From the sequence record OK428535.1: a DNA stretch of 64,000 nt, one strand, 5' to 3'. Position 1 is the first letter of the stretch. Every line of letters begins with the position of its first letter. The DNA is from Escherichia phage vB_EcoM_Lh1B. Of this stretch, positions 12,850-44,953 are shown piece by piece. A program made the position numbers and the translations under genes. Under the pieces are notes generated by a model. It was not told the origin of the DNA, ran no database searches, and saw only the letters and a list, made by a program, of their open reading frames with translations.

Positions 12850-13125
12850 ATGCGTTATCAGAAAGATATTGTAGAGCGTCTGTGTCTGGGTCTCGCTGGT
12901 ATTAGCCAGGAACTTAGCACCGCGTTCCATAACGAGTTCTCAGCACCGCGACATGCACTGTCTGAATTTAGTCATCAGGTAAATGCCCATTACGGCAACC
13001 TGATTAATGATAAACCGAAGGTTGATGCGGTCGGTGTGCCTGAACACAATGAAGATATCCCGTACTGGATTGAAGACCTGGAACGTGTGGTTCTTCCAGT
13101 GCTCCGTGAGAGGATGAAAAAATGA
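12850..13125 (+). CDS. hypothetical protein
   Basis: 91-aa ORF. Confidence 0.45.
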   Translation: MRYQKDIVERLCLGLAGISQELSTAFHNEFSAPRHALSEFSHQVNAHYGNLINDKPKVDAVGVPEHNEDIPYWIEDLERVVLPVLRERMKK

Positions 13126-13790
13126 GATTAGACCCGGCACGGCGAAAAAAAGCAGAAGCTTATGCTTTACAGTTACTGAACTTAGTTGACCCGACCGGGA
13201 TTAACGCGGAAGCTGCCAAGCGCGCTTTCTCACGAATGTCTGACGAAGAGTTCAATCGTCTGCGCGAAGGGTTGCCTGTTTACAACCCAACTGGTGNCAA
13301 GGTCAAAATTGACCATATGCGCAATATTAAAATTTGCGAAGCGATGGGACTGAACTTGTGTCAGCGCCTGTGGCTCACGGAACCGAAAACCGGTATCCTG
13401 CAGCGTACCCGTTACCCCCATTTAGTCTTCCGCCTGCCTGCACGTCGCCAGACGCAGATGCAAGAGAAGAAAATGGCGGTGGCGAAGAACGATAAAGTCC
13501 GCGATAAACTCTCAGGTCAGGTAGTAGGGCCTTCCAAAGCTTCGGGTGTTTCGTTTCCAGAAGCGTACATCATGTACTCGGATGGACACGACTCAACGCT
13601 CCAGGAGTTCCTGTGGGCGCGTGGTGGTAACGATACGTTACAACGTGCGTTCTATCAATCGCTACGGCAAACCGGTAAAGGTCGCATCAACCTGGAAGGG
13701 GCTGAGCGTACCAGTTCAAAAGCGCCGCGTACATGGTCTTCGTACTTTAAAGCAATGCACATCGGTAACAACTTAGGACGCCCGGAATGA
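13122..13790 (+). CDS. hypothetical protein
   Basis: 222-aa ORF; ATGA start/stop overlap with upstream gene. Confidence 0.55.
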   Translation: MRLDPARRKKAEAYALQLLNLVDPTGINAEAAKRAFSRMSDEEFNRLREGLPVYNPTGXKVKIDHMRNIKICEAMGLNLCQRLWLTEPKTGILQRTRYPHLVFRLPARRQTQMQEKKMAVAKNDKVRDKLSGQVVGPSKASGVSFPEAYIMYSDGHDSTLQEFLWARGGNDTLQRAFYQSLRQTGKGRINLEGAERTSSKAPRTWSSYFKAMHIGNNLGRPE

Positions 13791-31500: not shown

Positions 31501-34500
31501 TTCCACGCAGCCTTACCTAAAAGACCTACGGGTTTTAACACACCCCATTTCGTGATAGAACCGAGTATATTACCCACAGTTCCCAAGATACTGACGATGG
31601 GGCCGATGATAGGTAAGCCTTTCACCATATCCCACAGACCGCCAGATTTCCCTTTGGAGCCCTGCNCTTTCTCTTTCTTCNCCTTNCNTTTCNCACNCCA
31701 ACNTTTGAAGAAGTTAAAGTAGTCGCGTTTTTCATCACCTTCAGGCGGCTTGTTACGTTTACCGAACTTCGCAAACATGGTACGAATAATACCATCGTCG
31801 CCACCTGCACGGGATACTGATTCGCGCATGGTGTTAAACCACGACATCTCTTGCAAGCCAATCATTCGGTCCAAGCGTTCGAATAACCTTGCACCTGCTG
31901 ACTTGGCGGCATTCTTCCCTTTGTTGATAACCCTCCCTGCTGCATCACGGGCGGTCTCAAGGTCTTCCTTCGCATCGCCGTAGACTTTACGGCCAGAAAG
32001 GCCACCTTTCGCGTTCAAATGGCTGCGATAAAACTCAGCAACATCGTCATCGCGTCCAGCCAACCGACGTTCAACTTCGTAACGTGTAGCAATGTCGTGT
32101 CGTGCTCCACGATATCCATCGAGCATATCCCCAGCCCGGCCTCGGAAACCACTGAACCAACCNCGCAGGCNGTCGCGTCCACGACCAAAGAACGCTTTTG
32201 TTCTTGACCAACGTCCACCAAAACGTTCAGACAATGACGATTTCGCACGATCATACGCCCCGCGTACTGCACGACCGATCGTACTACCGCCACCCCCGAC
32301 GCCCTTCTCCATTTCCTCTGTCCAACTTTCGTCTTCCGGATCTCCCGGTAAACGTTGGTTCAACAGTTTATAGATACGGATAAGGATGTGGTTGGTTTTC
32401 TTGCCGGTTGATGAGAAGAGACTGAAACCACCACCCCCACCATCTTTACGGCCTTTCCACCAACGCGTCAGTGGGTTGTCGGTAANCATGTCTTTCAGAC
32501 GATCGACACCACGTTTCGCAAAACCGAGCACTTTACCCGGTAAGCTCGTTACACGGTTGAACGCTTTCTGGAGACGTGTCTTTTCTTCGCCTTCCGGAAT
32601 CTCGTTCAGCCAGTCCTTAATCTTACCAACGATGCTGCCTGCTTTCGGTGACAGGAAATCCAGGAACCGCTTCGGTAGCTTAGCCACCTTATTAAAGCCT
32701 AAGCCAATCTTACTGGCCAGACCTTGGGTCAGTGCTTGGATTTTCCCGCCTTTATAGTAGCGGAGTTTACCCGCAGCGGCTAAGTCAGCGGCTGCTAATA
32801 CCAGATTACCTGCGGAGTCAACAATATCACTCCCCAGTTTGATGTCGTCCAGCGTTTTCAGCTGAACCATTTTACCATCAATGACCTGATAGTATTCTCC
32901 AGCTTCCAGACGTGCACCTTGCAGAACAACGTTACCGTGGTCATCGTAAACATCGCGGATACCCAGTAGTCCTTTACCGAAGGAACTTACCGCTTCAAAA
33001 CCACCACGGACACTACCACTGATAAGGCCACGCATCCGGGTTAAGAAACCAGGACCTTCGCCACCTCCCATGCCTGCGACTTTACCGCGTGCCCAACCAC
33101 CGAACTGGTTCAGTTTATTCCAGGCACCCTTAACACCACGTTTCGCAAAGCCGCCGATTCCTGCTGCGGTGTCGAACAANACACCGCCCCAACGACGAAT
33201 AAGCCCATCCTCACCGATGATAATACGACGGCGTCTACCGCCACCGCTACCACCACCAGGGCGAGGCGGACCCATTTCTTCATCACCAGAACCAGCACCC
33301 CCTGCTAACGAAGCCAGAAGAACCCCTTCTTCGTCCATACTTCTGACGTGTTCCAGAATTTTCTGGAGGGTGTCACTGTTGTTGTTACCACGAATCGCTT
33401 CGATGATACCGTCAAAGTTATTCCGTGGTGCTTCTTCGCCGCGGTTACGTTGACTCAACAATTCAACAAAGTTAGTCGAGGTTTTACCGTAGAGAACTGC
33501 GGCTAACTGCCGAGGCGACATTCCGCGGCCTTTACCACCGCCACGTAAANCNGGNGGTAACGACGTGTCATCGGCACCACCACTTGCCCCTTGGTTCATT
33601 CGGCGCAGATAGTCGCCTAACGCCGAACCATTTTGCAGCTTACGTTGAATCTCCTGGTCACGAGTCAATGCGCGCCCGCTGCGTGTCTTACCCATCGCCA
33701 AGTCATTAAACAAGGTATAGGGATCGGACAGGTCTTTATCCACGCCGAAGGTGTCACTCTTCGCGTCGTAGTTAAAGATACCCGCATCACGCAACGCTCG
33801 CTCGCCGTAAATATTCACCGCCTCGTCGATAATTGCCTGACGTTGGGTGATAGATGACTGCACTGTGGAGATTTTGCGAGCCAGTTCGTTACTTAATTCG
33901 TTGCTACCACCGAGTAAGCTGTCTGAATGCCCCTGTAACGCTTCCTTAATGCGTTCTGCGGCGTTTCCTGGCATATACCGATGAAGATGCATCGGGTCTT
34001 TCAGAATCGCTTCTACGTCGAATGCGCGGCCCTGCGAGGCACGTGACTCGATATAGTCGGCAAGATGCTGTCGATCCTTCTGCGAGAGCGTTTTGCCACG
34101 GTCAACAAAATCCACAGTGCTGTTAATGGAATTTTGGAGACGCAGGCGCTGCTCATCGTTTGCAACCGCTTTGCGTACACGGTTACCGACCACTTTGCGG
34201 TCTACGAAACCACGACTGGTGATGTCGTATTCCAGATCGGCATGTTCGCCATAGCCACGACGAACAGATTTGTTAATCTCTGCCAGCCAGGCAGGAATAA
34301 CTTCAACCAGGCTAAGATACGCTTTACGGTCAAACTTCGCCGAACGACTTAACGTTTCGCCATTACGCTCATCGAGGAAGGCTTTCTCACGGTTTAACGG
34401 TTGGACAATACCGAGTTCATTCAGTACCCGGAACAAATCCGCCAACGGTCCTTGTGTTTCGCCTGCGATAGCTGAGTTCGAGATAGAGGAAAGATTACCA

Positions 34501-35522
34501 AAGGTGAACGCGCCCTTCTGCAGGCGTTTCATGACCTCTGGATTTTTCTCCATCTCCTCACGAGTCCATTTCTGGAGTTTCTCGATTTGTGGGCCGAGTA
34601 GTTTCTTCGCAAGGAATCCGCTACCCCATGCAGTTGCTTTATCGCGAGCATTTGTTTTGCGACGTTCGGCAGTCAACGAAGAGCTGTCGCTCATGCCGAA
34701 ATCGTCTTCAACACCCATGCCGAGAACAGACTCTAACAAACCACGACCTTCGCCAAATATACCAGAAATTTTCTTCTTGGTATTTTCGCGAATCATGTCC
34801 ATAAACCCGTCAGCATAACGCAANGGGTTCATCCATTCCGCAGCCTGGCGTTTAACGTTTGCCCAACGGACTTCTGAGAAATCTTCCTTCGCGTAGTCTG
34901 GCAGCGCCGTGTTCTTCACGATGGCTTCTAAAGCAGGCGTGTTACGATCGAACTCCGACTGCTTCATCTTCACGATGTCTTGAATGGCGAACAGGGTACG
35001 GTATTGCAATTCGAGTTTCTTACGCTCGATGTTTAAGAATACCCCACGGCTTAACCCGGTTAGCAGGTTAATGTCTTTCGCCATCCCAATCATGGTTTGG
35101 TGCATTGCATCCGCGCGCATCTCTTTGATGCTGTCGCGGAGCTTATCCTCTACCATGCGGTCCTGCAGTTGACGTTGTTCGTCGGCGTCCTTTGGCACGC
35201 CTGAGAAAACGTCGCCCAGTTCACGATCCATCAATGCCTGATTAGGATCGTAATTTTGGTAATCCAACTGGTCAGATTTTGACCACTTGTCGATGCGCTT
35301 AGTAACTGCATCCGGCAAGTATTTCTTCATCGTCGGACCGAGTTGGCGCGCTTGCATCTTCAGCGTGCGCTCGGTCTTCTCAAGCTCCCCTTTCGTATGG
35401 GCGTAAATGTCCTTTGCTGCAGCTGCCGCTGACTGATAACCCTCGTATGCATCAGCTGCCGGCTTAGGCATCCCCTTGAGGATAACTTGGTCGCGTTTCC
35501 CTTCTGGCCAGATAGTTGACAT
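28548..35522 (-). CDS. giant virion protein with lytic transglycosylase (SLT) domain
   Basis: About 2,324 aa from ATG at 35520-35522 (AGGAAG RBS); SLT signature AVALAMAK-x-ESGFNYTAKNPYASASGLFQF at about 29550-29700; Gly-rich linkers, hydrophobic segments and Ala/Pro-rich C-terminal tail. Confidence 0.8.
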   Translation of the reverse strand: MSTIWPEGKRDQVILKGMPKPAADAYEGYQSAAAAAKDIYAHTKGELEKTERTLKMQARQLGPTMKKYLPDAVTKRIDKWSKSDQLDYQNYDPNQALMDRELGDVFSGVPKDADEQRQLQDRMVEDKLRDSIKEMRADAMHQTMIGMAKDINLLTGLSRGVFLNIERKKLELQYRTLFAIQDIVKMKQSEFDRNTPALEAIVKNTALPDYAKEDFSEVRWANVKRQAAEWMNXLRYADGFMDMIRENTKKKISGIFGEGRGLLESVLGMGVEDDFGMSDSSSLTAERRKTNARDKATAWGSGFLAKKLLGPQIEKLQKWTREEMEKNPEVMKRLQKGAFTFGNLSSISNSAIAGETQGPLADLFRVLNELGIVQPLNREKAFLDERNGETLSRSAKFDRKAYLSLVEVIPAWLAEINKSVRRGYGEHADLEYDITSRGFVDRKVVGNRVRKAVANDEQRLRLQNSINSTVDFVDRGKTLSQKDRQHLADYIESRASQGRAFDVEAILKDPMHLHRYMPGNAAERIKEALQGHSDSLLGGSNELSNELARKISTVQSSITQRQAIIDEAVNIYGERALRDAGIFNYDAKSDTFGVDKDLSDPYTLFNDLAMGKTRSGRALTRDQEIQRKLQNGSALGDYLRRMNQGASGGADDTSLXXXLRGGGKGRGMSPRQLAAVLYGKTSTNFVELLSQRNRGEEAPRNNFDGIIEAIRGNNNSDTLQKILEHVRSMDEEGVLLASLAGGAGSGDEEMGPPRPGGGSGGGRRRRIIIGEDGLIRRWGGXLFDTAAGIGGFAKRGVKGAWNKLNQFGGWARGKVAGMGGGEGPGFLTRMRGLISGSVRGGFEAVSSFGKGLLGIRDVYDDHGNVVLQGARLEAGEYYQVIDGKMVQLKTLDDIKLGSDIVDSAGNLVLAAADLAAAGKLRYYKGGKIQALTQGLASKIGLGFNKVAKLPKRFLDFLSPKAGSIVGKIKDWLNEIPEGEEKTRLQKAFNRVTSLPGKVLGFAKRGVDRLKDMXTDNPLTRWWKGRKDGGGGGFSLFSSTGKKTNHILIRIYKLLNQRLPGDPEDESWTEEMEKGVGGGGSTIGRAVRGAYDRAKSSLSERFGGRWSRTKAFFGRGRDXLXGWFSGFRGRAGDMLDGYRGARHDIATRYEVERRLAGRDDDVAEFYRSHLNAKGGLSGRKVYGDAKEDLETARDAAGRVINKGKNAAKSAGARLFERLDRMIGLQEMSWFNTMRESVSRAGGDDGIIRTMFAKFGKRNKPPEGDEKRDYFNFFKXWXXKXKXKKEKXQGSKGKSGGLWDMVKGLPIIGPIVSILGTVGNILGSITKWGVLKPVGLLGKAAWNVGKFAVTRLXAPXVXXVGTGASAVVTAVGWPAILIGXXXXXXGYAXYKIATTTYTQYLDKMRLAQYGFRDYDKWSSDDGAKARYLEDALREYVSYAEDGQASLRGLGGKDVQKLAEGFGINVEEKGEMLAFQAFMLQRFIPIYLRWIXALKSMPNSIQLADVGDAKKVSKEDMQTLFNKMKMTKDAKAFSSLTDPRKVNQGFFSKAWDVVTFTPKEFLSGEEVMEVQNEVXXAIKFRMDDKKXRKYGMAPAVEGIKSAGVDEAINKLGQLDNERNKNLAKVEGWEDGTEQVQIQVDWNAVLDQKDMNAMESVRWKTYGFTTIDNATRTLITVFEKNVIKDIDVKTASYKGDWKKAIASMVPDAIGTPKEDRLKRWFFDRFLPVFMTYLVGVKRYLPTADPLNLKLTGGYLYEISLMMSTAYSLKGGIRQSVWEVNINPLGGDANTNPSSIKAELETLKLLSKEADLAVRNMIKAIKNNGKRARWKDRNKNRSSLEVTGEDEEDSNISSGDSLSSDGARASGYIPSGTSGGVPGNLGQVVDAVGGVRNYAAMTTGSSSINLSEVKDGDYKSLAEKYPIEMLGRKGALNVPNIKALITDAANMMGVPPAVALAMAKXESGFNYTAKNPYASASGLFQFVNGXWDGMMKGXSXKXGXPRVNQXXPXXXXILGVQFIRDNIQKAQRDLGGKAXXPAVAYLYHFLGAGGGKKFLEAWKRNPNMAASSAPGITSAILRGNANVFYSNGRIRSVDGVIQELNRRMGAISANEVAAVPSKTKDMVAGLSPNSPTNPAAAMGAPAANDPSLSXADNLPADNANRRDDALTQKGAMAAQDAMATAAGNVGPAAPXPTTGGTGTSDASTTAETVASQAAAEGLSXTDVAKVKAGAEAQVNAAARPIAAPTSDATASTPTLNGDPIDVQQLKVLIQSRDYLKEIRDILKSNPRAANDTRGGSIQQAANVPPPGSAARRQEITQPTPSLNVSRKAS

Positions 35523-35698
35523 CGCCGACTTCCTGGCAACATTCAGGGTACTGAGTATCGGGCTTCGTTTTTTCTCGTCTTTGGGACGGGGNGGTTCNCC
35601 NAAANCNTCCCANTCGTCGANTNTATCTAAATCNATATCATCNAAACCNTCTTTNCCTCTTTTTGCCNTAANNTTTNTTCCAATTNAGGAGNTTAAAA

Positions 35699-37312
35699 AT
35701 GACAAAGCTAAAATGGGTTNACTTTTACTTGTTAAACNNCAACAAGTCCCTGGTGTCGCATTTAAAACCAGTTACAACAACAGACACCTTTCAGGGACTG
35801 ACGAAAAACTTTCACCCTGAAGGACTGTATTCAACCGAAATTTTTGGCCTCACAGGGAGCGAAGCACGAGACTCAACGTTCTCGTACATTGATATCAAAC
35901 TGGATATCATTTCGCCGACCGTTTGTTTGGCATTGTTCCAGCTGAAACAGCTGTACGAAGAAATCTGTTCCGGGAAGCGATTCGCTATCTGGAATGAGAA
36001 AGAAAAAGATTTCGAGCCGGCTCTGCCCAGTGATAAAGGTGCAGACACCGGCTTCAACTTCTTCCTACGCTACTACGAACAACTGACACCGGGACGCAAC
36101 GAATCGATGCGTCGCGACGAGACAGTCGATTTCTTCAATAAGTTCCGTCCGGTCAGTCTCAGCCGCTATGTGCTGGTTCTGCCTGCGGGATTACGTGATT
36201 TGGTCATTCGTCAGGATGGCCGCGACCAAGAAGAAGAGATTGGCGGACTCTACCGTCGTCTGATTTCTCTGGCGCGTGCAATCCCCGACCGCAGTACGCG
36301 AACGGAACTGACTGACCCGGTTCGCTGGAAGCTCCAACAAACCTTTAATGATATCTGGATGTACTTCTTCAACATCCAGGATGGTAAAGGTGGTTTTGCA
36401 CGTCGTAAAGTGACGTCACGTAAGTTAATGAACGGTACGCGTAACGTACTGTCTTCATTCTCAACCGGTTCCAAGGTCATGGGTCGCGAAGATGCGATTC
36501 GTCCAACGGATACCCGTATCGGTTTGTACCAAACCCTGAAGGCATTACTGCCTGTGGCTCAATACCACATCCGTGAACGTTACCTCAGTAACATCCGGGC
36601 AGGGGACGGCAACTTATACGGCGTTAACACCAAAACACTCAAGCGTGAGTTCCTGGAAGTCTCCGGGCGGGTGTATGACCTTTTCACTACCGACGATGGC
36701 ATCGAAACACTCATCAACAGAATGGAAGCGCGCGAGCTTCGACATAAACCGCTGATGATTGATCCGGACCATTACGTGGCATTAATCTACCAGGACAAAC
36801 GCAGCTTCAAAATCTTTTACGATATTGAAGACCTGCCGGAAGGACGTGACCGCAAGCTTGTCCGCGGACTGAGCTTAGCAGAACTCCTCTATTTGTCAGG
36901 TTACGATATTTGGAATGACTACTTCTCGTTCATCACGCGTTATCCGGTTACGGGACGCGGTTCGACTTACTCCTCGACCATAAGATTGGAGACCACCACC
37001 TCTTCCCTCTATTTGCATGAACTGGAAGACGATTGGGNCACGTTAAAAGANAAGGGNGCAATTNGNTTCCCTGACCGTACCGTGAAAACNTTTGTGGAAT
37101 CCATGGCACCACATCCANCCCNATTAGGGGGNTTGGGNGGNGACNACGANGGNGACACCGGCNCANCAAANAGCCCGATGTCAACCGAAGCGCTCGNGGA
37201 AAATCGGAAGTGGGTCAGTTCGAAAAACTACTGGTTTGCAACAGACGGCAGTTTCAAAATCAATCCGGTTAACAACGTGATTAAAAGAACGACTGCTGCG
37301 CTGTTGAAATGA
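35699..37312 (+). CDS. RNA polymerase beta-prime-like subunit, N-terminal-half homologue
   Basis: 537 aa; ordered blocks VLVLPAGLRDLV, GGLYRRLI, GKGGFARRKVTSRKLMNGTRNVL, ITRYPVTGRGS, K.AI.FP and GGD-x-[D/E]-GDTG (37142..37156) match beta-prime lid/rudder/DPBB/catalytic-loop blocks; AGGAG RBS. Confidence 0.6.
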   Translation: MTKLKWVXFYLLNXNKSLVSHLKPVTTTDTFQGLTKNFHPEGLYSTEIFGLTGSEARDSTFSYIDIKLDIISPTVCLALFQLKQLYEEICSGKRFAIWNEKEKDFEPALPSDKGADTGFNFFLRYYEQLTPGRNESMRRDETVDFFNKFRPVSLSRYVLVLPAGLRDLVIRQDGRDQEEEIGGLYRRLISLARAIPDRSTRTELTDPVRWKLQQTFNDIWMYFFNIQDGKGGFARRKVTSRKLMNGTRNVLSSFSTGSKVMGREDAIRPTDTRIGLYQTLKALLPVAQYHIRERYLSNIRAGDGNLYGVNTKTLKREFLEVSGRVYDLFTTDDGIETLINRMEARELRHKPLMIDPDHYVALIYQDKRSFKIFYDIEDLPEGRDRKLVRGLSLAELLYLSGYDIWNDYFSFITRYPVTGRGSTYSSTIRLETTTSSLYLHELEDDWXTLKXKXAIXFPDRTVKXFVESMAPHPXXLGXLXXDXXXDTGXXXSPMSTEALXENRKWVSSKNYWFATDGSFKINPVNNVIKRTTAALLK

Positions 37313-37330
37313 TACCCATAAGGCACATGT

Positions 37331-40300
37331 ATGATTTTTCTGAAACAGTTTAACCAGCGCTTTACCGTGCGCAAGACCGATGAGTTCGGTCGTCCGCGTA
37401 TTATCCCGCTGGAGAAGCTCCAGCTCCCACGTGGTTCTATCTACCACACCATCGATTTAGACCAGGTGGTTTTAGCACCACCGTTAACTACACCGTNTTT
37501 TGNCCNGGTGGAAAAACCGGCGATGATTCGCCACCACTTCCAGCTGCCTGAAGACGGCATTATTGGCCACCCGCGTAAGAAACCGGTTGTTGGCCAAGAA
37601 CGTCAAATCTTCCAGTACCATCGTAACAATCGTCGTATTCGTCGCATGATTGAAGACGGCGTGGTACGTTCCGATCCGAAAGTGCTGCTCATCGAAAACT
37701 ACACCCCGATGCTGCCGCATTATTTCTACCCTGATACTCTGATGTCCTGGTACGAACGTCTGCACAACATTCAGCTGCTGATAACTAACCAGATGAAAAC
37801 TGACTCACGTGAGTACATGCGTCAGAACTACTACATCATCGAACTGGGTAACGTACTGCCTTCTTTCGATCGTTTTAAAATGACGTATAACGATCGTGTT
37901 AAAACCAAACTGGAGCGCTTTAAAGACTTTAACCTGCTGTGGTTACTGGAGTTGTTCGGTTGGGTGTACGGCGATCAGCAAGCAACACTGTTTGACGGTA
38001 TGGACATGAACCAGCTGTCACGTGTGAACTTTATCTTCACACACAACGGTGGTTTTACATCCATGAACATGGGTGTAATTGAAAGAATGCGTAAGTCTGC
38101 CGGTGGTCGTTTGACTGACGTGCAGATGGGCAGAATGTTCTACCGTACACTGACTACTGTGATGACCACACCGCCGTCTACCGACTACGAAGATGACGAG
38201 TTCGTTACACCGGAAGGGGATGAACGCGTACATCTGGGAGAGGACGACGATGCTGTTGAAACCGTTGCCAGTAAACCGGAAGAAAGCCTCGATATCGTCG
38301 ACGATGAAGCAACACAAAGCGACAACGTTGACGATACATTGAACGATCATGAGTTCGATGAGAAAGAAGATCTGGTCATCGAAGCGCCGAAAGAAGATGT
38401 CAAACCAACCACCATCGTCGTAGAACGCACCATCCCACACGATGCTGTGATTAAACAAGAAGTTGAGCGCCTGGCNGAAGCGGGCCGCGTCACCGCCAAA
38501 GCGTATCAGTTCCTGAACGAATCTTCTAAACGTTTCGTAAACTTACCCAACCCGTACAATCCTAAAGAGACGTACGGCGAAGGTCTGACCATCGATCCGA
38601 AGAAACTCGAAGTTAAAGCCGAGCCTAAGAAGATTGAACGCTTAGTTACGGATGAAGCCTGGGCGGAAAATACCACCGACCAAATCATTCGTCAGTACAA
38701 CCAGGAAATCTTCCCGAAAGATATTCTGGGGGCAGTAGCGTCATCTCAGCGTCTCGGTTTGGCGATTCACAATCACACTGTTNAGAAAGAGATTTCCGTT
38801 ACCGGGAATATCGAACACCACACGTTGCGTATTCAGCCGATTGGCGGAGAACCAACCACGGTACGTTTCTCAATTCCTGCATTAACCGAAGACGGTACTT
38901 GGGTTGCGAATGGTGTGGAATATACAATGCGTCGTCAGCGTGTTGATCTTCCCATCCGTAAAGTGTCCCACGATACTGTAGCGTTAACCACTGCCTACGG
39001 GAAGAACTTTGTCCGTCGCAGTGATAAAGTCGTCAATGATTACGGACGTTGGCTCACTAACGCGATTATTACTCGCGCGGTCGATCCAAAGAACACCGAA
39101 ATCACTGATGCAAAACTGGCGAATGTGTTCGATCCGCTGTCTAAACTGCCGCGTCAGTACACCGAGGTGGCACGTCGTGTAGCAGCATTCAACGCAATTG
39201 GGTACCAATGGAACTTTGACATTAAACAGAAAGCGGCATTCTTTAACGAAGGGCAACTGGCAGATGCGGACCGTGTCGAGCTGGTACCTGTGGCGAAGAA
39301 ACCGCGGAGTCATGTCATCGTCGGTATGGATAAAAACTCCCAGCTTTATCGAGTGGATAAGGATAAGACCGAACCACTGGGTACACTCGCCGAGGTCTTT
39401 GGCGTGGACACCTCTAAGGCTCCACGTGAAATGACCGAACTGTCACTGATGGGCAAATCAATCTCGCTGGGCTTTGTGTTTGCGTACTATCTCGGATTAA
39501 CCGGGATGTTGAAACACTTTGGTATCAGTTACGAGGTTCTCTCTGTCGGACAACGTATCGATAAAGGTCAGTTCGACTCCATTATTCGTCTCCAGGATGC
39601 GAAAATTGCAATTGTCTGCGAGAACGATCAACAGAGGATGATTGTCAACGGCTTAGACCGTTACATTAAACACTTTACCACGTATACCGAGTCGGAAGTT
39701 GACCGGGAAGACATTTACCTGAACCTGTTACGTGATGCAGATGGGCTAACACCACGCTACATCAAAGAGCTGAAACTGATGCGGACCGCATTTGTTGACG
39801 ACATGCACGCGCGTATCCTCAGGAAAATGGGCGAGCCGGNAACCTTTATCGGCTTACTGGAGCGTTCTAACGAACTGCTGCAGACGGACCACACGTTACC
39901 GGAAATTAACGGTGACGAAATGATGTTCATCGGGAACCAACGTATTTCGTATCACATCTACACCGCGATGGTGCGGGCGATGCGTAACTACAACAACGCG
40001 CCTAACTCGAATCGTAAGTTTGAGTTGACGCAGGACATGGTCTGGGGTGCAATTAACTCCGACCCGTCTGTTCTACTGGCTCCTGGTGCAAACCCGGTAC
40101 AGAACATCAAAGAAAAAGATGTTGTTACCATGGGCGGTACAGGTGGTCGTAACCGCAAGACCATGGTCTACAGTACCCGTGAATTCCAACCGAGCGACCT
40201 GGGGATTGTCTCCGGTAACACGGTCGATAACGGCGATGTAGGTATCACCGCCTTTGCAACAAACAATCCGCGTTACGACACCGTGGACGGCACGACCTTT

Positions 40301-41536
40301 AAAAAGGACCTCGATAAACTGAAGCCAGGTGAGGCACTGTCATTTATTGATGGCTTGGTGCCGGATACCCTGATGGACGATGCTAAGCGTCAGAACTTCG
40401 TTGGGATTCAATTCGGTTCTGCGACCAGTTGTGTTGGCGCAACCACCACACCGTATCGTACCGAGCAAGAAAAGTTCGTGGCACACCGTACTTCTGTGAA
40501 GCACGCACGCGTAATCGATAAACCTGGCAAGATTGTGGAGGTTCTTAACGACCACGTTAAAATCAAATACGACGACGGAGAGGAAGAAGCTTTCCCACTG
40601 GGCCGTTGGTTCGGTCCGCACGAAGGGACTTACTACCCACACACCCTGGTAACGAAATGGAAGCGCGGAGATAAACTCCCTGCCGGTGCCGTTATCACGT
40701 ACAACGAACAACACTTTGAACCAGACATCTACGATCCAACGCAGGTCAGTTTTAAAAACGGGATACTGGCAACTGTCGCTTTGATTGAAGGGGAAGAAGT
40801 AATTGAGGACTCCAACGCCATTAGTGAGCGGTTCGCTGCTAAGGCTGAAGCCGATGTTACCAAACTCAAAGAAGTCACAATGACGTTTACCCAGAACCTG
40901 TTGGAGATGGTAAAAGAAGGGGACCACGTAGACGTGGATTCAATTCTATGCACCTTCACCGACAACCTGACCGGCGATATGAGCGGGTTCAGTAAAGAAG
41001 CAGCGGAAACGCTGCGTGAGTTAAGCTCCTTTGCACCACGCTCTGGTGTTCGTGGGTTTATCGACAAAATCGAAGTGGTTTACCACGGCGAGGTGGAAGA
41101 TATGACCCCGTCTTTGGCGGAGATGGTTCGTAAATACGACCGTATACGTCGGAAGACTGCGCTGGCTCTCAAACGTGACGAGCCGAAGGATGGTCGAGTC
41201 AACGGTGATTTTCGTGTTGAGGGGGTGCCGTTAGCGTACAATAGCCTGTGTGTCCGATTCTACATCACACACCGGGTAGAGATGGCAGCAGCGGATAAGA
41301 TGGTTATTGCTAACCAGCTGAAAACGACGGTTCAGGAAGTGATGTATGGAACCAACAAAACGGAAGACGGGCAGGAACTCGACATTATCTTTGGTCGTGA
41401 TTCCGTCGACGCACGTATCGTAGGTTCTATCATGCGCATCGGAACCACCAACGCTGTCGGGTATCGTGGTGGGGAGAATATCGGACGCATCTTAGATGGT
41501 GAAGACGTCCCAGCCTTGCCGGCTAAAATCAACTAA
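37331..41536 (+). CDS. large protein, possible partner RNAP subunit (unconfirmed)
   Basis: 1,401-aa ORF in the same frame as the upstream gene, separated by TGA and TAA; only weak RNAP-like blocks (GAVASSQRLG, VVTMGGTGGRNRKTMV); acidic low-complexity insert. Confidence 0.55.
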   Translation: MIFLKQFNQRFTVRKTDEFGRPRIIPLEKLQLPRGSIYHTIDLDQVVLAPPLTTPXFXXVEKPAMIRHHFQLPEDGIIGHPRKKPVVGQERQIFQYHRNNRRIRRMIEDGVVRSDPKVLLIENYTPMLPHYFYPDTLMSWYERLHNIQLLITNQMKTDSREYMRQNYYIIELGNVLPSFDRFKMTYNDRVKTKLERFKDFNLLWLLELFGWVYGDQQATLFDGMDMNQLSRVNFIFTHNGGFTSMNMGVIERMRKSAGGRLTDVQMGRMFYRTLTTVMTTPPSTDYEDDEFVTPEGDERVHLGEDDDAVETVASKPEESLDIVDDEATQSDNVDDTLNDHEFDEKEDLVIEAPKEDVKPTTIVVERTIPHDAVIKQEVERLXEAGRVTAKAYQFLNESSKRFVNLPNPYNPKETYGEGLTIDPKKLEVKAEPKKIERLVTDEAWAENTTDQIIRQYNQEIFPKDILGAVASSQRLGLAIHNHTVXKEISVTGNIEHHTLRIQPIGGEPTTVRFSIPALTEDGTWVANGVEYTMRRQRVDLPIRKVSHDTVALTTAYGKNFVRRSDKVVNDYGRWLTNAIITRAVDPKNTEITDAKLANVFDPLSKLPRQYTEVARRVAAFNAIGYQWNFDIKQKAAFFNEGQLADADRVELVPVAKKPRSHVIVGMDKNSQLYRVDKDKTEPLGTLAEVFGVDTSKAPREMTELSLMGKSISLGFVFAYYLGLTGMLKHFGISYEVLSVGQRIDKGQFDSIIRLQDAKIAIVCENDQQRMIVNGLDRYIKHFTTYTESEVDREDIYLNLLRDADGLTPRYIKELKLMRTAFVDDMHARILRKMGEPXTFIGLLERSNELLQTDHTLPEINGDEMMFIGNQRISYHIYTAMVRAMRNYNNAPNSNRKFELTQDMVWGAINSDPSVLLAPGANPVQNIKEKDVVTMGGTGGRNRKTMVYSTREFQPSDLGIVSGNTVDNGDVGITAFATNNPRYDTVDGTTFKKDLDKLKPGEALSFIDGLVPDTLMDDAKRQNFVGIQFGSATSCVGATTTPYRTEQEKFVAHRTSVKHARVIDKPGKIVEVLNDHVKIKYDDGEEEAFPLGRWFGPHEGTYYPHTLVTKWKRGDKLPAGAVITYNEQHFEPDIYDPTQVSFKNGILATVALIEGEEVIEDSNAISERFAAKAEADVTKLKEVTMTFTQNLLEMVKEGDHVDVDSILCTFTDNLTGDMSGFSKEAAETLRELSSFAPRSGVRGFIDKIEVVYHGEVEDMTPSLAEMVRKYDRIRRKTALALKRDEPKDGRVNGDFRVEGVPLAYNSLCVRFYITHRVEMAAADKMVIANQLKTTVQEVMYGTNKTEDGQELDIIFGRDSVDARIVGSIMRIGTTNAVGYRGGENIGRILDGEDVPALPAKIN

Positions 41537-41583
41537 TGTAGGGCGGGTCGCTCCCGCCCGGTAAATAAACTCCGGAGTTAATA

Positions 41584-41877
41584 ATGGGAATTTTAGATAC
41601 GCTCAAGCAGCAGCATGGGATTCCGGTGGGTCGTAATAGCACGAATCCGGAAACGGAAGGTTATTCCCCACAGCAACGCATGAACTTTGTTGTTCTGGGC
41701 AATGCGGTTGAATTGGCCACCGAAATTATTCACGGACTGCTGAAGGGCAGCAATGGCCTGTCTGACCGCATGGGCGATCAGCGTTTGCTGAAACGAGACA
41801 TCGCTGATATGGTGGGTGCGCGTATTACTGGTCGCATCCAGGATTCTATCAGCACCAAAAACGGGGGTCAGGCATGA
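41584..41877 (+). CDS. hypothetical protein
   Basis: 97-aa ORF. Confidence 0.45.
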   Translation: MGILDTLKQQHGIPVGRNSTNPETEGYSPQQRMNFVVLGNAVELATEIIHGLLKGSNGLSDRMGDQRLLKRDIADMVGARITGRIQDSISTKNGGQA

Positions 41878-43349
41878 TCAACTTATATTCACTTAATGCT
41901 GTCACCAACGCAATGAAACTGGCGAAACAACACCAGGTTCGTTTGGAAGCTGACGTTGACAGTCCTGTTGGTCTACTGACAAAAGCGACTACGCAGCAGA
42001 GCGTTTTCGATACGCAGATAACTGACGAAGAGTTCTTCCAGTCTCTGCCGGATATCACTGCACTGAAAACACCACAATCTGGCACGGGCGAAGCGTCTGT
42101 AATCGCAGATACTGCAGCGGGTCCAGAAACGCTGAACGTCGAAGACCACGAACCGACACTGTTCGAACTGAAACGTATGGCTATCCAACGTTGTCAGGGT
42201 ATGCTTGACTTTGCCCGTAACGTTATTCAGCCGTTTGTTCAACTGGTTATCCAAAACAACCAGGGTATTGAAAACCNGGCNGTTNGNGAANAATGGGNAC
42301 TTGTGCCTGCAGGTATGGACCCGGCGTTGAACTCCCCGGTGGTACAGGCATTAATTGATTCGGTAGAAAACCCGCTGGGCAATGGTACTACGCACCCTGC
42401 AGTTAAAGCCAACGTCCCTGCTGATATCGAACTGCCAGAAACCGGCAGCAAAGCTTACGACGATCTGGTTAAAGAACTGTTGAATGCGCTGGGTTGGAAT
42501 ATCAACGAAGCCGTTCGCAACATGCTCGAAGGGAACATGCTCTCTCCGGTAAGCGACCAGGCACCACACAACCTGAAACGCAACATTCTGTTTATGCTNC
42601 TTTCTGGCTNCTACCTGGAAATGCCGTGGAAAGACTCTGGTCTGAATAGCGGGCAGTGGAAAGCACAGATGCTGCCGTTGCATTACAGCTATATCGGTTG
42701 GGTTTACGCCTACACCCAGAACATCGTTACCCGCATCAAGACCGGTAACATTGTCTTCGGATACGACAACGTTGAGAAGAAAGTGTATATCTGTCAGGAA
42801 GTGATGGACGACTATCTGGAAAAAGGCGGTAGCGTTGAAGCGTTACTGGGCGCTATCTACCAGCTGGACGAAGGTGACACCAATGTCTCCACGCGTGTAG
42901 CTTCACTGTTGGAAAAACAGAAAGACTACATCGCTGCCTGGGGCCACCGTTCTGCGATTCAGCGTGCTAAGCTCGACAGCAGTTGGGTAACACGCAATCG
43001 CCAGTCACTGAAACAAGCGTTTAACGTGGCTATCGATGCGACCGATCCTGAACTGTTCTGGCGTGGACAGGACGGTCAGGTAGCAACGCCGGAGTTCGTT
43101 AAGAAATCAACGGCAAGCTTCATCGATTCGTTCTTCACCACCGACACCACAGACATCACTGAGTTCGTTATCAAGGTCTCCGCGACTGAGGTCTTCGGTG
43201 AATACGAACTGTCCAAGCTGATGCTGGATATTCATCGTGGTATGATTGCTAACCGTCAACCTGACGAGGTGGCAACCGACTGGATGATTAACTACGTCCT
43301 GGATTGGATTTGTGGCGGTGTGGTTATTTCTGTACCGAGCAAAGTTTAA
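41874..43349 (+). CDS. hypothetical protein
   Basis: 491-aa ORF; ATGA overlap with upstream gene. Confidence 0.55.
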   Translation: MINLYSLNAVTNAMKLAKQHQVRLEADVDSPVGLLTKATTQQSVFDTQITDEEFFQSLPDITALKTPQSGTGEASVIADTAAGPETLNVEDHEPTLFELKRMAIQRCQGMLDFARNVIQPFVQLVIQNNQGIENXXVXEXWXLVPAGMDPALNSPVVQALIDSVENPLGNGTTHPAVKANVPADIELPETGSKAYDDLVKELLNALGWNINEAVRNMLEGNMLSPVSDQAPHNLKRNILFMXLSGXYLEMPWKDSGLNSGQWKAQMLPLHYSYIGWVYAYTQNIVTRIKTGNIVFGYDNVEKKVYICQEVMDDYLEKGGSVEALLGAIYQLDEGDTNVSTRVASLLEKQKDYIAAWGHRSAIQRAKLDSSWVTRNRQSLKQAFNVAIDATDPELFWRGQDGQVATPEFVKKSTASFIDSFFTTDTTDITEFVIKVSATEVFGEYELSKLMLDIHRGMIANRQPDEVATDWMINYVLDWICGGVVISVPSKV

Positions 43350-43358
43350 TAAAGAGAG

Positions 43359-44087
43359 GTGGTCATGAGCGCCATTGAAACAGCACGTCGTGACGCGACG
43401 AAAATTCATGCAGATTTAGTGGACCAAGGCACGGCCACCATCACCAAAGGGGGATGTTACATTTACATCCCTGTTGGCTTCGTGGCTAAAGAGCTGGCGG
43501 TAATTTCTTCGCAAGTCGAAATCGTCGGCATTTTCGCTATCTCCACTGACCGCAAAACCTACGGGGTATCGAACGTCACGACGTTCATTGAAATTACCCC
43601 GTCGGCGTTTGAGGAAATTGACGTTCAGGGTGTGCCGTATTACGAGTTCCGTTTTGACCCCGGCACGGTGGTGTTCCCCAACCGAATGCTGCAAGTGCTA
43701 TCCTCGCCAGTCTACAACATCGCTTCGTACATCTACGACTTCGGAAACCGGCCTTTCTGGTACACCGCAGTAGATGACGCTGAGCTATTGTCTGACACTA
43801 AGACGTGGAACGGCTTTACGGTCTTTAACGACCAGATCACCGCTGACTGTTATGCTGCCCACACACAGCGTAAGGTTGGCGACCCGCGGACGTATTTCCG
43901 CTACACCCTGAAAAAAGACAGCGATTTGATGAATCGGGTGCAGTTTATTCCGCTGCGTTCAGGTTCATTGAACAAAACTTCCCGGTTGGCCAAGATTGCA
44001 GATGTGGAACTGAAACAGGGTATCCGTTCTGCACTCCAGGTCGATCCGGTACGTGCAGAGCCACTCGAGGATTTGTATATGAGGTAA
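43359..44087 (+). CDS. hypothetical protein
   Basis: 242-aa ORF with GAGAGG RBS. Confidence 0.55.
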   Translation: MVMSAIETARRDATKIHADLVDQGTATITKGGCYIYIPVGFVAKELAVISSQVEIVGIFAISTDRKTYGVSNVTTFIEITPSAFEEIDVQGVPYYEFRFDPGTVVFPNRMLQVLSSPVYNIASYIYDFGNRPFWYTAVDDAELLSDTKTWNGFTVFNDQITADCYAAHTQRKVGDPRTYFRYTLKKDSDLMNRVQFIPLRSGSLNKTSRLAKIADVELKQGIRSALQVDPVRAEPLEDLYMR

Positions 44088-44149
44088 CTGAGGTAGGGTT
44101 ATTGTACGTCCCCAATAACCCGCTTCGGTAATAACAACTGGGGAAACCA

Positions 44150-44953
44150 ATGGAAAACTTGTCACTACGTTATAACTGCGTGGCACTCGCTGGGGTCAAT
44201 AAAGGGGCAACGCTAAAGAAAGATGCGGACGGATATTACTACGTCCTGTTAGGTGCATTGAATATTTTCAACTCTGAGAATATTTACTACGCCTATAACG
44301 AGTCAAAACATGTCTTCGAGCGCTCTAACGTTTTCATGCGTAAAGTTTTGGCGGGGAATCTCTTCGGTGAAGAAGACCATCCGCAATACGAACAAGGCAT
44401 GAGCGAAGCCCAGTGGATCGAACGTAACGAATGGATCGAAACGCGTAACGTGTGTATGCACATTCGCGAAGTAGAAGTGAAGCCGACCGACCAGATGTGT
44501 AACGGTCTGCCGGTGATGGAAATTTGGGGTTGGATTAAACCTAACCGTGAACGTGGTCCGCTTCTGGCGGAAGCACTAGAGAACCCACATCAGAACGTGT
44601 GTTTCTCACTGCGTGCTATCGTTCGTGAAGGTCGTCTGGGTACGACAATCGTACGCCGCATCGATAAACTGGTCACCTTTGACTGGGTTATTGAAGATGG
44701 TCTGCAAATCTGTAACAAATACTCTGCGATTCAACGCGGTAGTAAAGTGGCACAGGAATCCACTCGCACTTACGTCGACCGTCCTATTAGTCGTCAGGTG
44801 CTGGAAGACATCCTGTACAATCCGACAACGACCAGCGCTGTTGCCACTGAGTCCCGTCGTGGCGCTCTCCAGCAACTCGCGCAGGAATACCTGCAGCTGG
44901 CTCCGAAAGTGTCCAATCTGCGGGTAATGGGCATGGGTGTAAGGAGCTGGTAA
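44150..44953 (+). CDS. hypothetical protein
   Basis: 267-aa ORF. Confidence 0.55.
   Translation: MENLSLRYNCVALAGVNKGATLKKDADGYYYVLLGALNIFNSENIYYAYNESKHVFERSNVFMRKVLAGNLFGEEDHPQYEQGMSEAQWIERNEWIETRNVCMHIREVEVKPTDQMCNGLPVMEIWGWIKPNRERGPLLAEALENPHQNVCFSLRAIVREGRLGTTIVRRIDKLVTFDWVIEDGLQICNKYSAIQRGSKVAQESTRTYVDRPISRQVLEDILYNPTTTSAVATESRRGALQQLAQEYLQLAPKVSNLRVMGMGVRSW

What the first reader, a model, noticed from the sequence alone, without database searches (positions are those of the whole stretch)
35699..41536. Divergent multisubunit-type RNA polymerase beta-prime homologue, split from a 1,401-aa partner ORF
The 537-aa product of 35699..37312 carries, in canonical order but with expanded spacing, blocks resembling the N-terminal half of bacterial beta-prime: VLVLPAGLRDLV (cf. 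LPVLPPDLRPLV), GGLYRRLI (cf. DLYRRVI), GKGGFARRKVTSRKLMNGTRNVL (cf. [23 protein letters not shown]), ITRYPVTGRGS (cf. NRAPTLHRLG), K.AI.FP (cf. KAIQLHP) and GGD-x-[D/E]-GDTG at 37142..37156 (cf. the NADFDGD Mg-binding loop). A phage-encoded, highly diverged msRNAP-like enzyme would mean transcription independent of host RNAP, as in phiKZ-like and AR9-like jumbo phages. The 1,401-aa ORF has only weak candidate blocks, so whether it is the partner subunit is open. The second residue of the DxDGD loop and nearby codons are N in this assembly.
Basis: partly seen in the sequence, partly recalled or inferred. Interest (0 to 1): 0.85.

Follow-up and report, generated by a model that had tools for sequence, protein, structure and literature searches.

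The report
Known jumbo-phage virion RNA polymerase genes

Summary
The window comes from a Seoulvirus, an SPN3US-like Salmonella jumbo phage (98.8% nt identity to SPFM4, 97.5% to SPN3US). [quoted passage not shown] A profile of its family hits AR9 nvRNAP beta-prime (E 2.5e-12) and E. coli beta-prime (5e-7). An AlphaFold model retrieves only beta-prime chains (E 1e-12 to 1e-15). The N-masked catalytic loop reads DYDGD in near-identical relatives, and DxDGD is present in 34 of 35 family members (the other is truncated).

ORF 37331..41536 (1401 aa) is the orthologue of SPN3US gp241 and phiKZ gp178. It is not the other half of beta-prime. It is about 80% of a beta subunit behind a family-specific N-terminal extension of about 420 aa. 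Its profile hits Thermus beta at E 9e-12, and Foldseek gives 5.7e-27 (TM 0.5).

Two more vRNAP genes lie in the window: beta-C (13122..13790) and the beta-prime-C candidate (43365..44087).

Published amber mutants and virion mass spectrometry already establish this enzyme in SPN3US. Verdict: real, correctly read, already known, low interest.

The parts
35699..37312 (+). vRNAP beta-prime N-terminal subunit (537 aa), orthologue of SPN3US gp240 and phiKZ gp180
   Evidence: ORF. phrog_2986 at E 7e-226. 97.5-98.8% nt identity to SPN3US and SPFM4, annotated as an RNAP subunit. Family profile versus PDB beta-prime, E 2.5e-12 to 5e-7. AF2 model with pLDDT 81. Foldseek top hits are all beta-prime, E 4.7e-15 to 1e-11.
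36170..36202 (+). VLVLPAGLRDL block (aa 158-168), equivalent to the beta-prime VLPPxLRP motif
   Evidence: Aligned to PVLPPELRPI of plastid beta-prime. PAGLRD is nearly invariant in the 35 homologues.
36383..36451 (+). GKGGFARRKVTSRKLMNGTRNVL block (aa 229-251), equivalent to beta-prime [23 protein letters not shown]
   Evidence: Aligned. G229, K230, R241, G246, T247, R248 and V250 are invariant.
36935..36964 (+). TRYPVTGRGS (aa 413-422), probable equivalent of beta-prime NRAPTLHRLG and first strand of the double-psi beta-barrel
   Evidence: R414 and P416 are invariant. The model has strand 409-415 here. No HMM alignment covered this block, so the equivalence is inferred.
37103..37156 (+). MAPHPSRLGGLGGDYDGD (aa 469-486), the catalytic Mg-binding loop; DxDGD lies at 37142..37156
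   Evidence: The window reads GAC NAC GAN GGN GAC. Relatives resolve it to DYDGD. DxDGD is present in 34 of 35 homologues; the remaining one is truncated. Aligned to LHPLVCKGFNADFDGD. It lies between model strands 469-471 and 487-491.
37331..41536 (+). vRNAP beta-like subunit 'beta-N' (1401 aa), orthologue of SPN3US gp241 and phiKZ gp178
   Evidence: phrog_3148 at E 0. Family profile versus Thermus beta at E 9e-12, with four collinear blocks covering beta residues 118-880 of 1119. AF2 model of aa 420-1401 with pLDDT 86 and pTM 0.82. Foldseek top hits are all bacterial beta, E 5.7e-27, TM 0.5. 29% identity over the full length to the KTN4 (phiKZ) homologue.
37331..38590 (+). Family-specific N-terminal extension of beta-N (aa 1-420) with no detectable cellular beta counterpart; it includes an acidic linker at aa 281-360 (38171..38410, 39% D+E)
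   Evidence: No PDB or Pfam match. In one search, 493 cluster representatives match at E<=0.001; in nearly all of the 150 listed the match starts near the protein's N-terminus, and the listed proteins include groups of about 540-630, 1000-1100 and 1350-1500 aa. Composition. Thomas et al. 2016 note about 400 N-terminal residues without beta homology.
41294..41323 (+). DKMVIANQLK (aa 1322-1331), equivalent to beta GDKxxxRHGNKG, the two conserved lysines of the beta double-psi beta-barrel
   Evidence: Aligned to Thermus beta GDKLANRHGNKG. D1322, K1323, Q1329 and K1331 are invariant in the 17 homologues.
13122..13790 (+). vRNAP beta C-terminal subunit (222 aa), orthologue of SPN3US gp218
   Evidence: 99.0% nt identity to the SPN3US CDS at 189763..190431, annotated 'RNA polymerase beta subunit'. 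phrog_3233 at E 1.2e-93. The role comes from PMC5105663 and PMC5694885.
43365..44087 (+). Candidate vRNAP beta-prime C-terminal subunit (240 aa), orthologue of SPN3US gp244 and phiKZ gp176
   Evidence: 99.0% nt identity to SPN3US. phrog_2926 'virion structural protein' at E 1.2e-94. The assignment as fifth vRNAP subunit comes from the literature only; I did not test its beta-prime homology.

Best explanation
The two ORFs encode two of the five polypeptides of the virion-packaged multisubunit RNA polymerase (vRNAP) of an SPN3US-like (Seoulvirus) jumbo phage. The 537-aa protein is the N-terminal third of a beta-prime subunit. It carries the clamp-side motifs and the catalytic double-psi beta-barrel, whose DYDGD loop binds the active-site Mg2+. 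The 1401-aa protein is the beta subunit from its N-terminal lobes through its own double-psi beta-barrel (the DK...K lysines). It is preceded by a family-specific module of about 420 aa and lacks the last ~240 residues of beta, which are supplied by the gp218 homologue at 13122..13790. The rest of beta-prime comes from gp42, encoded outside this window, and the gp244 homologue at 43365..44087. The steps that follow are taken from work on SPN3US and phiKZ and are not shown here. The subunits are made in the middle or late phase and assemble into a complex in the cytoplasm. The complex is packaged into the prohead only if every subunit is present, at roughly ten copies per phiKZ virion. It is ejected with the DNA and transcribes the early genes without host RNAP, sigma, alpha or omega, so the infection is rifampicin-resistant.
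For: Identity and orthology: 97.5-98.8% nt identity to SPN3US and SPFM4 across 35699..41536, and gene-for-gene synteny with SPN3US and with phiKZ-type KTN4 (peptidoglycan hydrolase, beta-prime-N, beta-N, small ORF, two head proteins, head protease). Family: phrog_2986 at 7e-226 and phrog_3148 at E 0. Beta-prime homology: profile versus PDB at 2.5e-12 (AR9 nvRNAP beta-prime-N) and 5e-7 (E. coli beta-prime), aligning the canonical motifs; hhalign across the DxDGD region; Foldseek returns only beta-prime chains. Catalytic loop: DYDGD in relatives, and conserved in every full-length homologue. Beta homology of the 1401-aa protein: profile at E 9e-12 with four collinear blocks and Foldseek at 5.7e-27, TM 0.5. 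Partner genes. Function, from the literature: SPN3US gp240 and gp241 were detected in virions by mass spectrometry; a gp241 amber mutant is lethal and its particles lack gp42, gp218, gp240, gp241 and gp244 (PMC5105663); gp218 and gp244 mutants give the same result (PMC5694885); phiKZ gp180 carries DFDGD, is packaged at about 10 copies per virion and is injected (PMC10612078); early transcription is rifampicin-insensitive (PMC13282480).
Against: Nothing contradicts this explanation. There are four caveats. In the window itself two of the five catalytic-loop codons are ambiguous (NAC, GAN), so the full DxDGD is inferred from near-identical genomes. Single-sequence Pfam and PDB searches find nothing, so homology to cellular RNAP is visible only with profiles or structure. 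Foldseek TM-scores for the beta-prime fragment are low (about 0.3), as expected for an isolated multi-domain fragment. No enzymatic activity of any Seoulvirus vRNAP has been measured as far as I found, and no solved structure of a phiKZ-type vRNAP appeared in the PDB copy searched.
Confidence: 0.95

Rival explanations
1. The two ORFs belong to the second, non-virion RNA polymerase (nvRNAP), which transcribes middle and late genes, rather than to the packaged vRNAP.
For: The closest solved structure by sequence and by fold is a non-virion enzyme, AR9 nvRNAP beta-prime-N. That may simply reflect the fact that no vRNAP structure turned up in the PDB copy searched.
Against: The ORFs are near-identical orthologues of SPN3US gp240 and gp241, which were found in purified virions and heads. 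The SPN3US nvRNAP candidates lie elsewhere in that genome (29014..33356) and have no match in this window. The genes sit in the conserved head-gene cluster, as phiKZ gp180 and gp178 do. tblastn finds a single place per phiKZ-type genome, and it is annotated as virion-associated.
Confidence: 0.02
2. The proteins are catalytically dead RNAP-derived head or ejection proteins that kept the fold but serve only a structural or packaging role.
For: Divergence is extreme: 12-14% identity to cellular subunits. The N-terminal region has only two cysteines (C76, C90) and no CxC...CxxC pattern of a zinc ribbon (sequence). There are large lineage-specific insertions and extensions. I found no direct enzymology for Seoulvirus.
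Against: Every catalytic signature is under strong conservation: DxDGD in all full-length homologues, the beta DK...K lysines invariant, and the GKxG..GTRNV and PAGLRD blocks nearly invariant. phiKZ infection is independent of host RNAP, and early genes are transcribed by the injected vRNAP.
Confidence: 0.03
3. The motif resemblance is a chance match in an unrelated phage protein.
For: No Pfam hit and no single-sequence PDB hit.
Against: Profile E-values of 1e-12 to 1e-7 with collinear motifs. Foldseek probability 1.00 for more than 500 beta-prime chains. PF04997 (Rpb1 domain 1) hits in 5 of 35 homologues.
Confidence: 0

Closest known systems
Salmonella phage SPN3US gp240 (vRNAP beta-prime-N) and gp241 (vRNAP beta-N); Thomas et al. 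2016 J Virol (PMC5105663), Ali et al. 2017 Front Microbiol (PMC5694885)
   Same: Same genes: same lengths (537 and 1401 aa in RefSeq), same order and neighbours, 97.5% nt identity. The protein is identical to the SPN3US product at every unmasked position after the first five residues except one (S492 inferred from SPFM4 versus C in SPN3US).
   Different: The window has an ATG start where SPN3US and SPFM4 have GTG, and the first residues differ (MTKLK versus VRKLN). There are scattered synonymous or near-synonymous differences, and N-masked bases. No functional difference is apparent.
Pseudomonas phage phiKZ vRNAP subunits gp180 (beta-prime-N, DFDGD) and gp178 (beta-N)
   Same: Same family, same split architecture and same head-gene synteny. 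The beta-N proteins align over their full length, including the N-terminal extension. Both are packaged and injected.
   Different: Only about 33% (beta-prime-N) and 29% (beta-N) identity. The loop is DYDGD here and DFDGD in phiKZ. The 201phi2-1 beta-N homologue loses an N-terminal propeptide, whereas SPN3US gp241 is not processed.
Bacillus phage AR9 nvRNAP beta-prime-N (PDB 7S00/7S01 chain d) and phiKZ nvRNAP gp55 (structure paper PMC8287921)
   Same: Split beta-prime N-terminal fragment ending shortly after the DxDGD barrel, and no alpha or omega. AR9 is the best solved match by sequence profile (2.5e-12) and by fold (4.7e-15).
   Different: These are the non-virion paralogues, with 13% identity. 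The nvRNAPs have a dedicated fifth promoter-specificity subunit (phiKZ gp68). No such factor is known for the vRNAP. The protein here has an extra domain of roughly 95 aa between the GKxGF block and the barrel.
Bacterial RNAP beta-prime (rpoC) and beta (rpoB), and the naturally split cyanobacterial and plastid gamma/beta-prime
   Same: Conserved motif order, two double-psi beta-barrels, DxDGD and the beta lysines; the fold is recovered by Foldseek. A split beta-prime also occurs in cyanobacteria and plastids, which rank among the best hits (8qma_T, 8w9z_C).
   Different: 12-14% identity. Beta-prime is split into three pieces and beta into two. There are only two cysteines (C76, C90) in the N-terminal region and no CxC...CxxC zinc-ribbon pattern. 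Beta carries an N-terminal extension of about 420 aa. The complex is packaged in a capsid.

Membership tests
phiKZ-like jumbo-phage vRNAP beta-prime-N (phrog_2986; SPN3US gp240 / phiKZ gp180) | Full-length sequence membership in the family | tested here: met
   phrog_2986 at E 7e-226, covering aa 5-536 of 537. 321 phage records hold a homologue. 899 proteins match at E<=1e-3.
phiKZ-like jumbo-phage vRNAP beta-prime-N (phrog_2986; SPN3US gp240 / phiKZ gp180) | Catalytic DxDGD loop with three aspartates | tested here: met
   The window reads D-[NAC]-[GAN]-G-D. It resolves to DYDGD in SPFM4 and SPN3US. It is conserved in 34 of 35 homologues; the other is truncated. Direct confirmation in this isolate needs resequencing.
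phiKZ-like jumbo-phage vRNAP beta-prime-N (phrog_2986; SPN3US gp240 / phiKZ gp180) | Beta-prime fold including the double-psi beta-barrel | tested here: met
   AF2 model with pLDDT 81; six strands span aa 409-491, with DxDGD between the fifth and sixth. 586 Foldseek matches have E<=0.001, and the top 50 are all RNAP beta-prime/gamma chains.
phiKZ-like jumbo-phage vRNAP beta-prime-N (phrog_2986; SPN3US gp240 / phiKZ gp180) | Conserved position in the head-gene cluster next to beta-N and the virion peptidoglycan hydrolase | tested here: met
   The window order (gp239 on the minus strand, then gp240, gp241, gp242, gp243, gp244) matches SPN3US and KTN4/phiKZ.
phiKZ-like jumbo-phage vRNAP beta-prime-N (phrog_2986; SPN3US gp240 / phiKZ gp180) | Physical presence in the virion and ejection with the DNA | not testable with these tools
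   Shown for the SPN3US orthologues by mass spectrometry of virions and tailless heads and for phiKZ gp180 by western blot and fluorescence.
phiKZ-like jumbo-phage vRNAP (whole five-subunit enzyme) | Complete set of subunit genes: beta-N, beta-C, beta-prime-N, beta-prime-M, beta-prime-C | tested here: inconclusive
   Four of the five genes are in the window (35699..37312, 37331..41536, 13122..13790, 43365..44087). The beta-prime-M gene (SPN3US gp42, at 39365..40660 of that genome) has no match in the window. It is expected to lie outside these 64 kb.
Multisubunit RNAP beta subunit (rpoB-like), for the 1401-aa ORF | Collinear beta motifs, beta fold, and the conserved barrel lysines | tested here: met
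   Profile versus Thermus beta at E 9e-12, with blocks at beta 118-139, 396-464, 530-655 and 822-880. Foldseek at 5.7e-27, TM 0.5. D1322, K1323 and K1331 are invariant.
Multisubunit RNAP beta subunit (rpoB-like), for the 1401-aa ORF | Full-length beta in one polypeptide | tested here: not met
   Homology stops at about Thermus beta residue 880 of 1119. The remainder is encoded separately by the gp218 homologue at 13122..13790. The protein is therefore a beta fragment ('beta-N') plus an N-terminal extension of about 420 aa.
C-terminal half of beta-prime (the reading implied by 'split from a partner ORF') | Bridge helix and trigger loop, or any similarity to beta-prime, in the 1401-aa ORF | tested here: not met
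   All significant PDB profile hits and all of the top 50 Foldseek hits are beta chains, and none is a beta-prime chain.
phiKZ/AR9 non-virion RNAP (nvRNAP) | Orthology to nvRNAP subunits and absence from virions | tested here: not met
   Orthology and synteny are with the vRNAP genes. The SPN3US nvRNAP candidate genes have no match in the window.

The most novel reading that the evidence does not exclude
The N-terminal module of about 420 aa on the beta-like subunit consists of a domain of about 280 aa, a linker with 39% acidic residues and a helical region. It has no cellular counterpart, and in nearly all of the listed matches among 493 cluster representatives it sits at the protein's N-terminus. 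It might be the still-unidentified element that does what alpha, sigma or a capsid-targeting sequence does elsewhere: nucleating assembly of the five fragments, directing the complex into the prohead, or contributing to early-promoter recognition, for which no vRNAP specificity factor is known. Thomas et al. 2016 already hypothesised the head-targeting role, so only its demonstration or a promoter-recognition role would be new.
Probability: 0.3. Interest if true: 0.4.

Novelty: already known. Interest (0 to 1): 0.1.

Why it matters
For this window it settles the annotation. The two ORFs, together with 13122..13790 and 43365..44087, encode four of the five subunits of the packaged, host-independent RNA polymerase that defines phiKZ-related jumbo phages. 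That marks the source as a Seoulvirus expected to rely on its own RNA polymerases. In general the enzyme is remarkable: a bacterial-type RNAP cut into five pieces, lacking alpha, omega and sigma, and threaded through a phage tail. That has been recognised since 2008-2016, so the finding adds no new biology. The questions that remain open are the vRNAP structure, its promoter-recognition mechanism and the role of the beta-N extension, and this window does not make them more tractable than the published SPN3US genetic system already does.

Tried and rejected
- Single-sequence Pfam scans of both proteins gave no family beyond one chance hit (Helicase_Sgs1, E 0.088). Single-sequence PDB phmmer searches gave nothing for the 537-aa protein and one chance hit at E 0.81 for the 1401-aa protein. 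Homology needs profiles.
- Per-member Pfam scans were weak. PF04997 matched 5 of 35 beta-prime-N homologues (best E 1e-5), and PF00562 matched 1 of 17 beta-N homologues (E 0.043).
- Weak TPR and designed-repeat hits to beta-N aa 377-441 (E 0.07-0.7) were rejected as helical, low-complexity noise.
- The sigma70-promoter and intrinsic-terminator scan of 35000..44500 found no more than shuffled sequence gives: 6 versus 9.1 and 12 versus 9.9. This is uninformative, and expected for a phage that does not use host RNAP.
- I searched the window for the beta-prime-M gene (gp42) and for the nvRNAP genes. There were no matches.
- Odd SPFM7/8/9/12 'RNAP' proteins had high HMMER scores but 3-12% BLAST coverage. 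They turned out to have 20-aa blocks in reversed order, a record artefact and not a variant architecture.
I did not test them further.

Full report
**Observation**

The quoted sequence blocks are all present. The window carries 247 N in 58 clusters, 18 of them in 37038..37197, so the putative catalytic loop reads GAC NAC GAN GGN GAC at 37142..37156.

**Source of the window**

Megablast of 35699..41536 against phage genomes gives full-length matches at 98.8% identity to Salmonella phage SPFM4 and its siblings, and 97.5% to SPN3US (genus Seoulvirus). At non-N positions the identity to SPFM4 is 99.3%. In those records the two genes are annotated as RNA polymerase beta subunits. Translating the relatives resolves the masked loop to GGLGGDYDGDTGS, so the DxDGD motif is complete.

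**The 537-aa protein is a beta-prime N-terminal fragment**

- Searched as a single sequence, the protein is invisible to Pfam and to PDB phmmer. It matches phrog_2986 at E 7e-226.
- A profile built from 35 homologues at 37-100% identity hits AR9 nvRNAP beta-prime-N (7S01_d, E 2.5e-12), plastid and cyanobacterial beta-prime/gamma (about 1e-9) and E. coli beta-prime (5e-7).
  - VLPAGLRD with VLPPELRP
  - LYRRL with LYRRVI
  - GKxGF.R.K...GTRNV with [22 protein letters not shown]
  - APHPSRL.GLGaDfDGD with LHPLVCKGFNADFDGD
The protein therefore ends a few dozen residues after the catalytic loop.
The KAIQLHP equivalent is ESMAPHP (aa 467-473).
- DxDGD is present in every full-length homologue.
- An AlphaFold2 model (mean pLDDT 81) has six strands between aa 409 and 491, with DYDGD between the fifth and sixth. 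This is the arrangement described for phiKZ gp55.
- Foldseek against the PDB returns only beta-prime/gamma chains in the top 50, with E 4.7e-15 to 1e-11.
- The 'expanded spacing' reflects a confidently modelled extra domain at about aa 271-400.

**The 1401-aa protein is beta, not the rest of beta-prime**

- It matches phrog_3148 at E 0.
- A 17-sequence profile hits Thermus beta at E 9e-12, with four collinear blocks:
  - aa 509-530 with beta 118-139
  - aa 909-976 with beta 396-464
  - aa 984-1113 with beta 530-655
  - aa 1298-1354 with beta 822-880. This last block contains DKMVIANQLK opposite GDKLANRHGNKG.
- D1322, K1323 and K1331 are invariant.
- An AlphaFold2 model of aa 420-1401 (pLDDT 86, pTM 0.82) retrieves only bacterial beta chains, with best E 5.7e-27 and TM 0.5.
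- Homology ends at about residue 880 of the 1119-residue Thermus beta.
- The first ~420 aa have no cellular counterpart. They include a stretch of 39% D+E at aa 281-360. The module is conserved: 493 cluster representatives match it, near the protein's N-terminus in nearly all of those listed. The phiKZ-type homologue aligns over this region too.

**Other subunits and gene context**

- The window also holds the beta-C gene (13122..13790; 99% identity to the SPN3US gene annotated as RNAP beta; phrog_3233) and the gp244 homologue (43365..44087; phrog_2926).
- The beta-prime-M gene (SPN3US gp42) and the nvRNAP genes have no match in the window.
- The gene order is: virion peptidoglycan hydrolase on the minus strand, then beta-prime-N, beta-N, a small ORF, two head proteins and, in SPN3US and KTN4, the head protease next. 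It is the same in SPN3US and in phiKZ-type KTN4.

**What is already published**

- Thomas et al. 2016 (PMC5105663) assign SPN3US gp240 as vRNAP beta-prime-N, carrying the catalytic motif and the barrel, and gp241 as beta-N with about 400 non-homologous N-terminal residues.
- They show that both proteins are in virions. A gp241 amber mutant is lethal and yields particles lacking gp42, gp218, gp240, gp241 and gp244.
- Ali et al. 2017 (PMC5694885) show the same for gp218 and gp244 mutants, and show that gp241 is not proteolytically processed.
- For phiKZ, gp180 (DFDGD) is packaged at about 10 copies per virion and is injected (PMC10612078).
- Early transcription by the injected vRNAP is rifampicin-insensitive (PMC13282480).
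- The nvRNAP structure confirms the split beta/beta-prime architecture (PMC8287921).
- No solved structure of a phiKZ-type vRNAP appeared in any PDB search here.

**Mechanism**

- Shown here: homology, fold, conserved catalytic residues, the gene set and synteny.
- Inferred from orthologues: assembly of the five fragments before packaging, incorporation into the prohead, ejection with the DNA, and host-independent early transcription.
- Rivals (nvRNAP, a dead structural derivative, chance resemblance) are each at or below a few per cent.

**Verdict**

The partner ORF is beta-like rather than the other half of beta-prime, and one motif block was misaligned. The feature is already known and well characterised in a 97.5%-identical phage, so interest is low. 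The only part with residual novelty potential is the function of the beta-N N-terminal module.

Noticed in passing
Public records of Salmonella phages SPFM12, SPFM9, SPFM8 and SPFM7 (also SPFM1 and SPFM6 for the beta gene); proteins P0101, P0102, P0104, P0155, P0156, P0158: Their 'RNAP beta' proteins match gp240 and gp241 only as perfect 20-aa blocks arranged in reverse order (for example aa 509-529 to 5-25, 490-509 to 26-45, 450-469 to 66-85). This suggests that the 60-nt sequence lines of those records are in reversed order, which would be a database artefact. It explains the high HMMER scores with 3-12% BLAST coverage.
   Followed up: partly
window, whole length; e.g. 35592..35739 (21 N) and 37038..37197 (18 N): There are 247 isolated N bases in 58 clusters. 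They are scattered singly within codons rather than forming assembly gaps. One cluster sits on the catalytic loop and another on the divergent gp239/gp240 starts. The non-N bases agree 99.3% with SPFM4 over 35699..41536.
   Followed up: partly
window 35669..35699: By homology, the start codon of the 2373-aa minus-strand gene is at 35669. The beta-prime-N start on the plus strand is at 35699, only 29 nt away. Both promoters must therefore lie inside the neighbouring coding sequence. No sigma70-like site is found there, which fits transcription by phage RNAPs.
   Followed up: no
window 35699..35713: The beta-prime-N start is ATG here but GTG in SPFM4 and SPN3US. There are 3 nt differences in the first 15 nt (MTKLK versus VRKLN). 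The 2016 paper lists gp240 as 519 aa, so the start site has been annotated differently over time.
   Followed up: no
window 28551..35669 (-): A 2373-aa protein annotated 'tail fiber protein' (phrog_3201) carries a transglycosylase region at about aa 1978-2256 (phrog_4067, E 9.5e-23). It is syntenic with the KTN4/phiKZ 'structural peptidoglycan hydrolase'. The public 'tail fiber' label is probably imprecise.
   Followed up: partly
window 38171..38410 (beta-N aa 281-360): This stretch is extremely acidic (39% D+E, 6% K+R). It lies between the conserved N-terminal domain of about 280 aa and the beta body.
   Followed up: partly
Proteins P0165-P0309: Homologues of the beta-N N-terminal module occur in proteins of three length classes: about 540-630, 1000-1100 and 1350-1500 aa. 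This suggests that the beta-like subunit is split at further, lineage-specific sites in other jumbo phages. Some of the shorter ones may instead be truncated on short contigs.
   Followed up: no
window 41874..43349 (+): This 491-aa ORF (phrog_3841, unknown function) is the homologue of SPN3US gp243. Ali et al. 2017 report that gp243 is essential for incorporating the abundant ejection proteins into the prohead. It lies between the beta-N gene and the beta-prime-C candidate gene.
   Followed up: no
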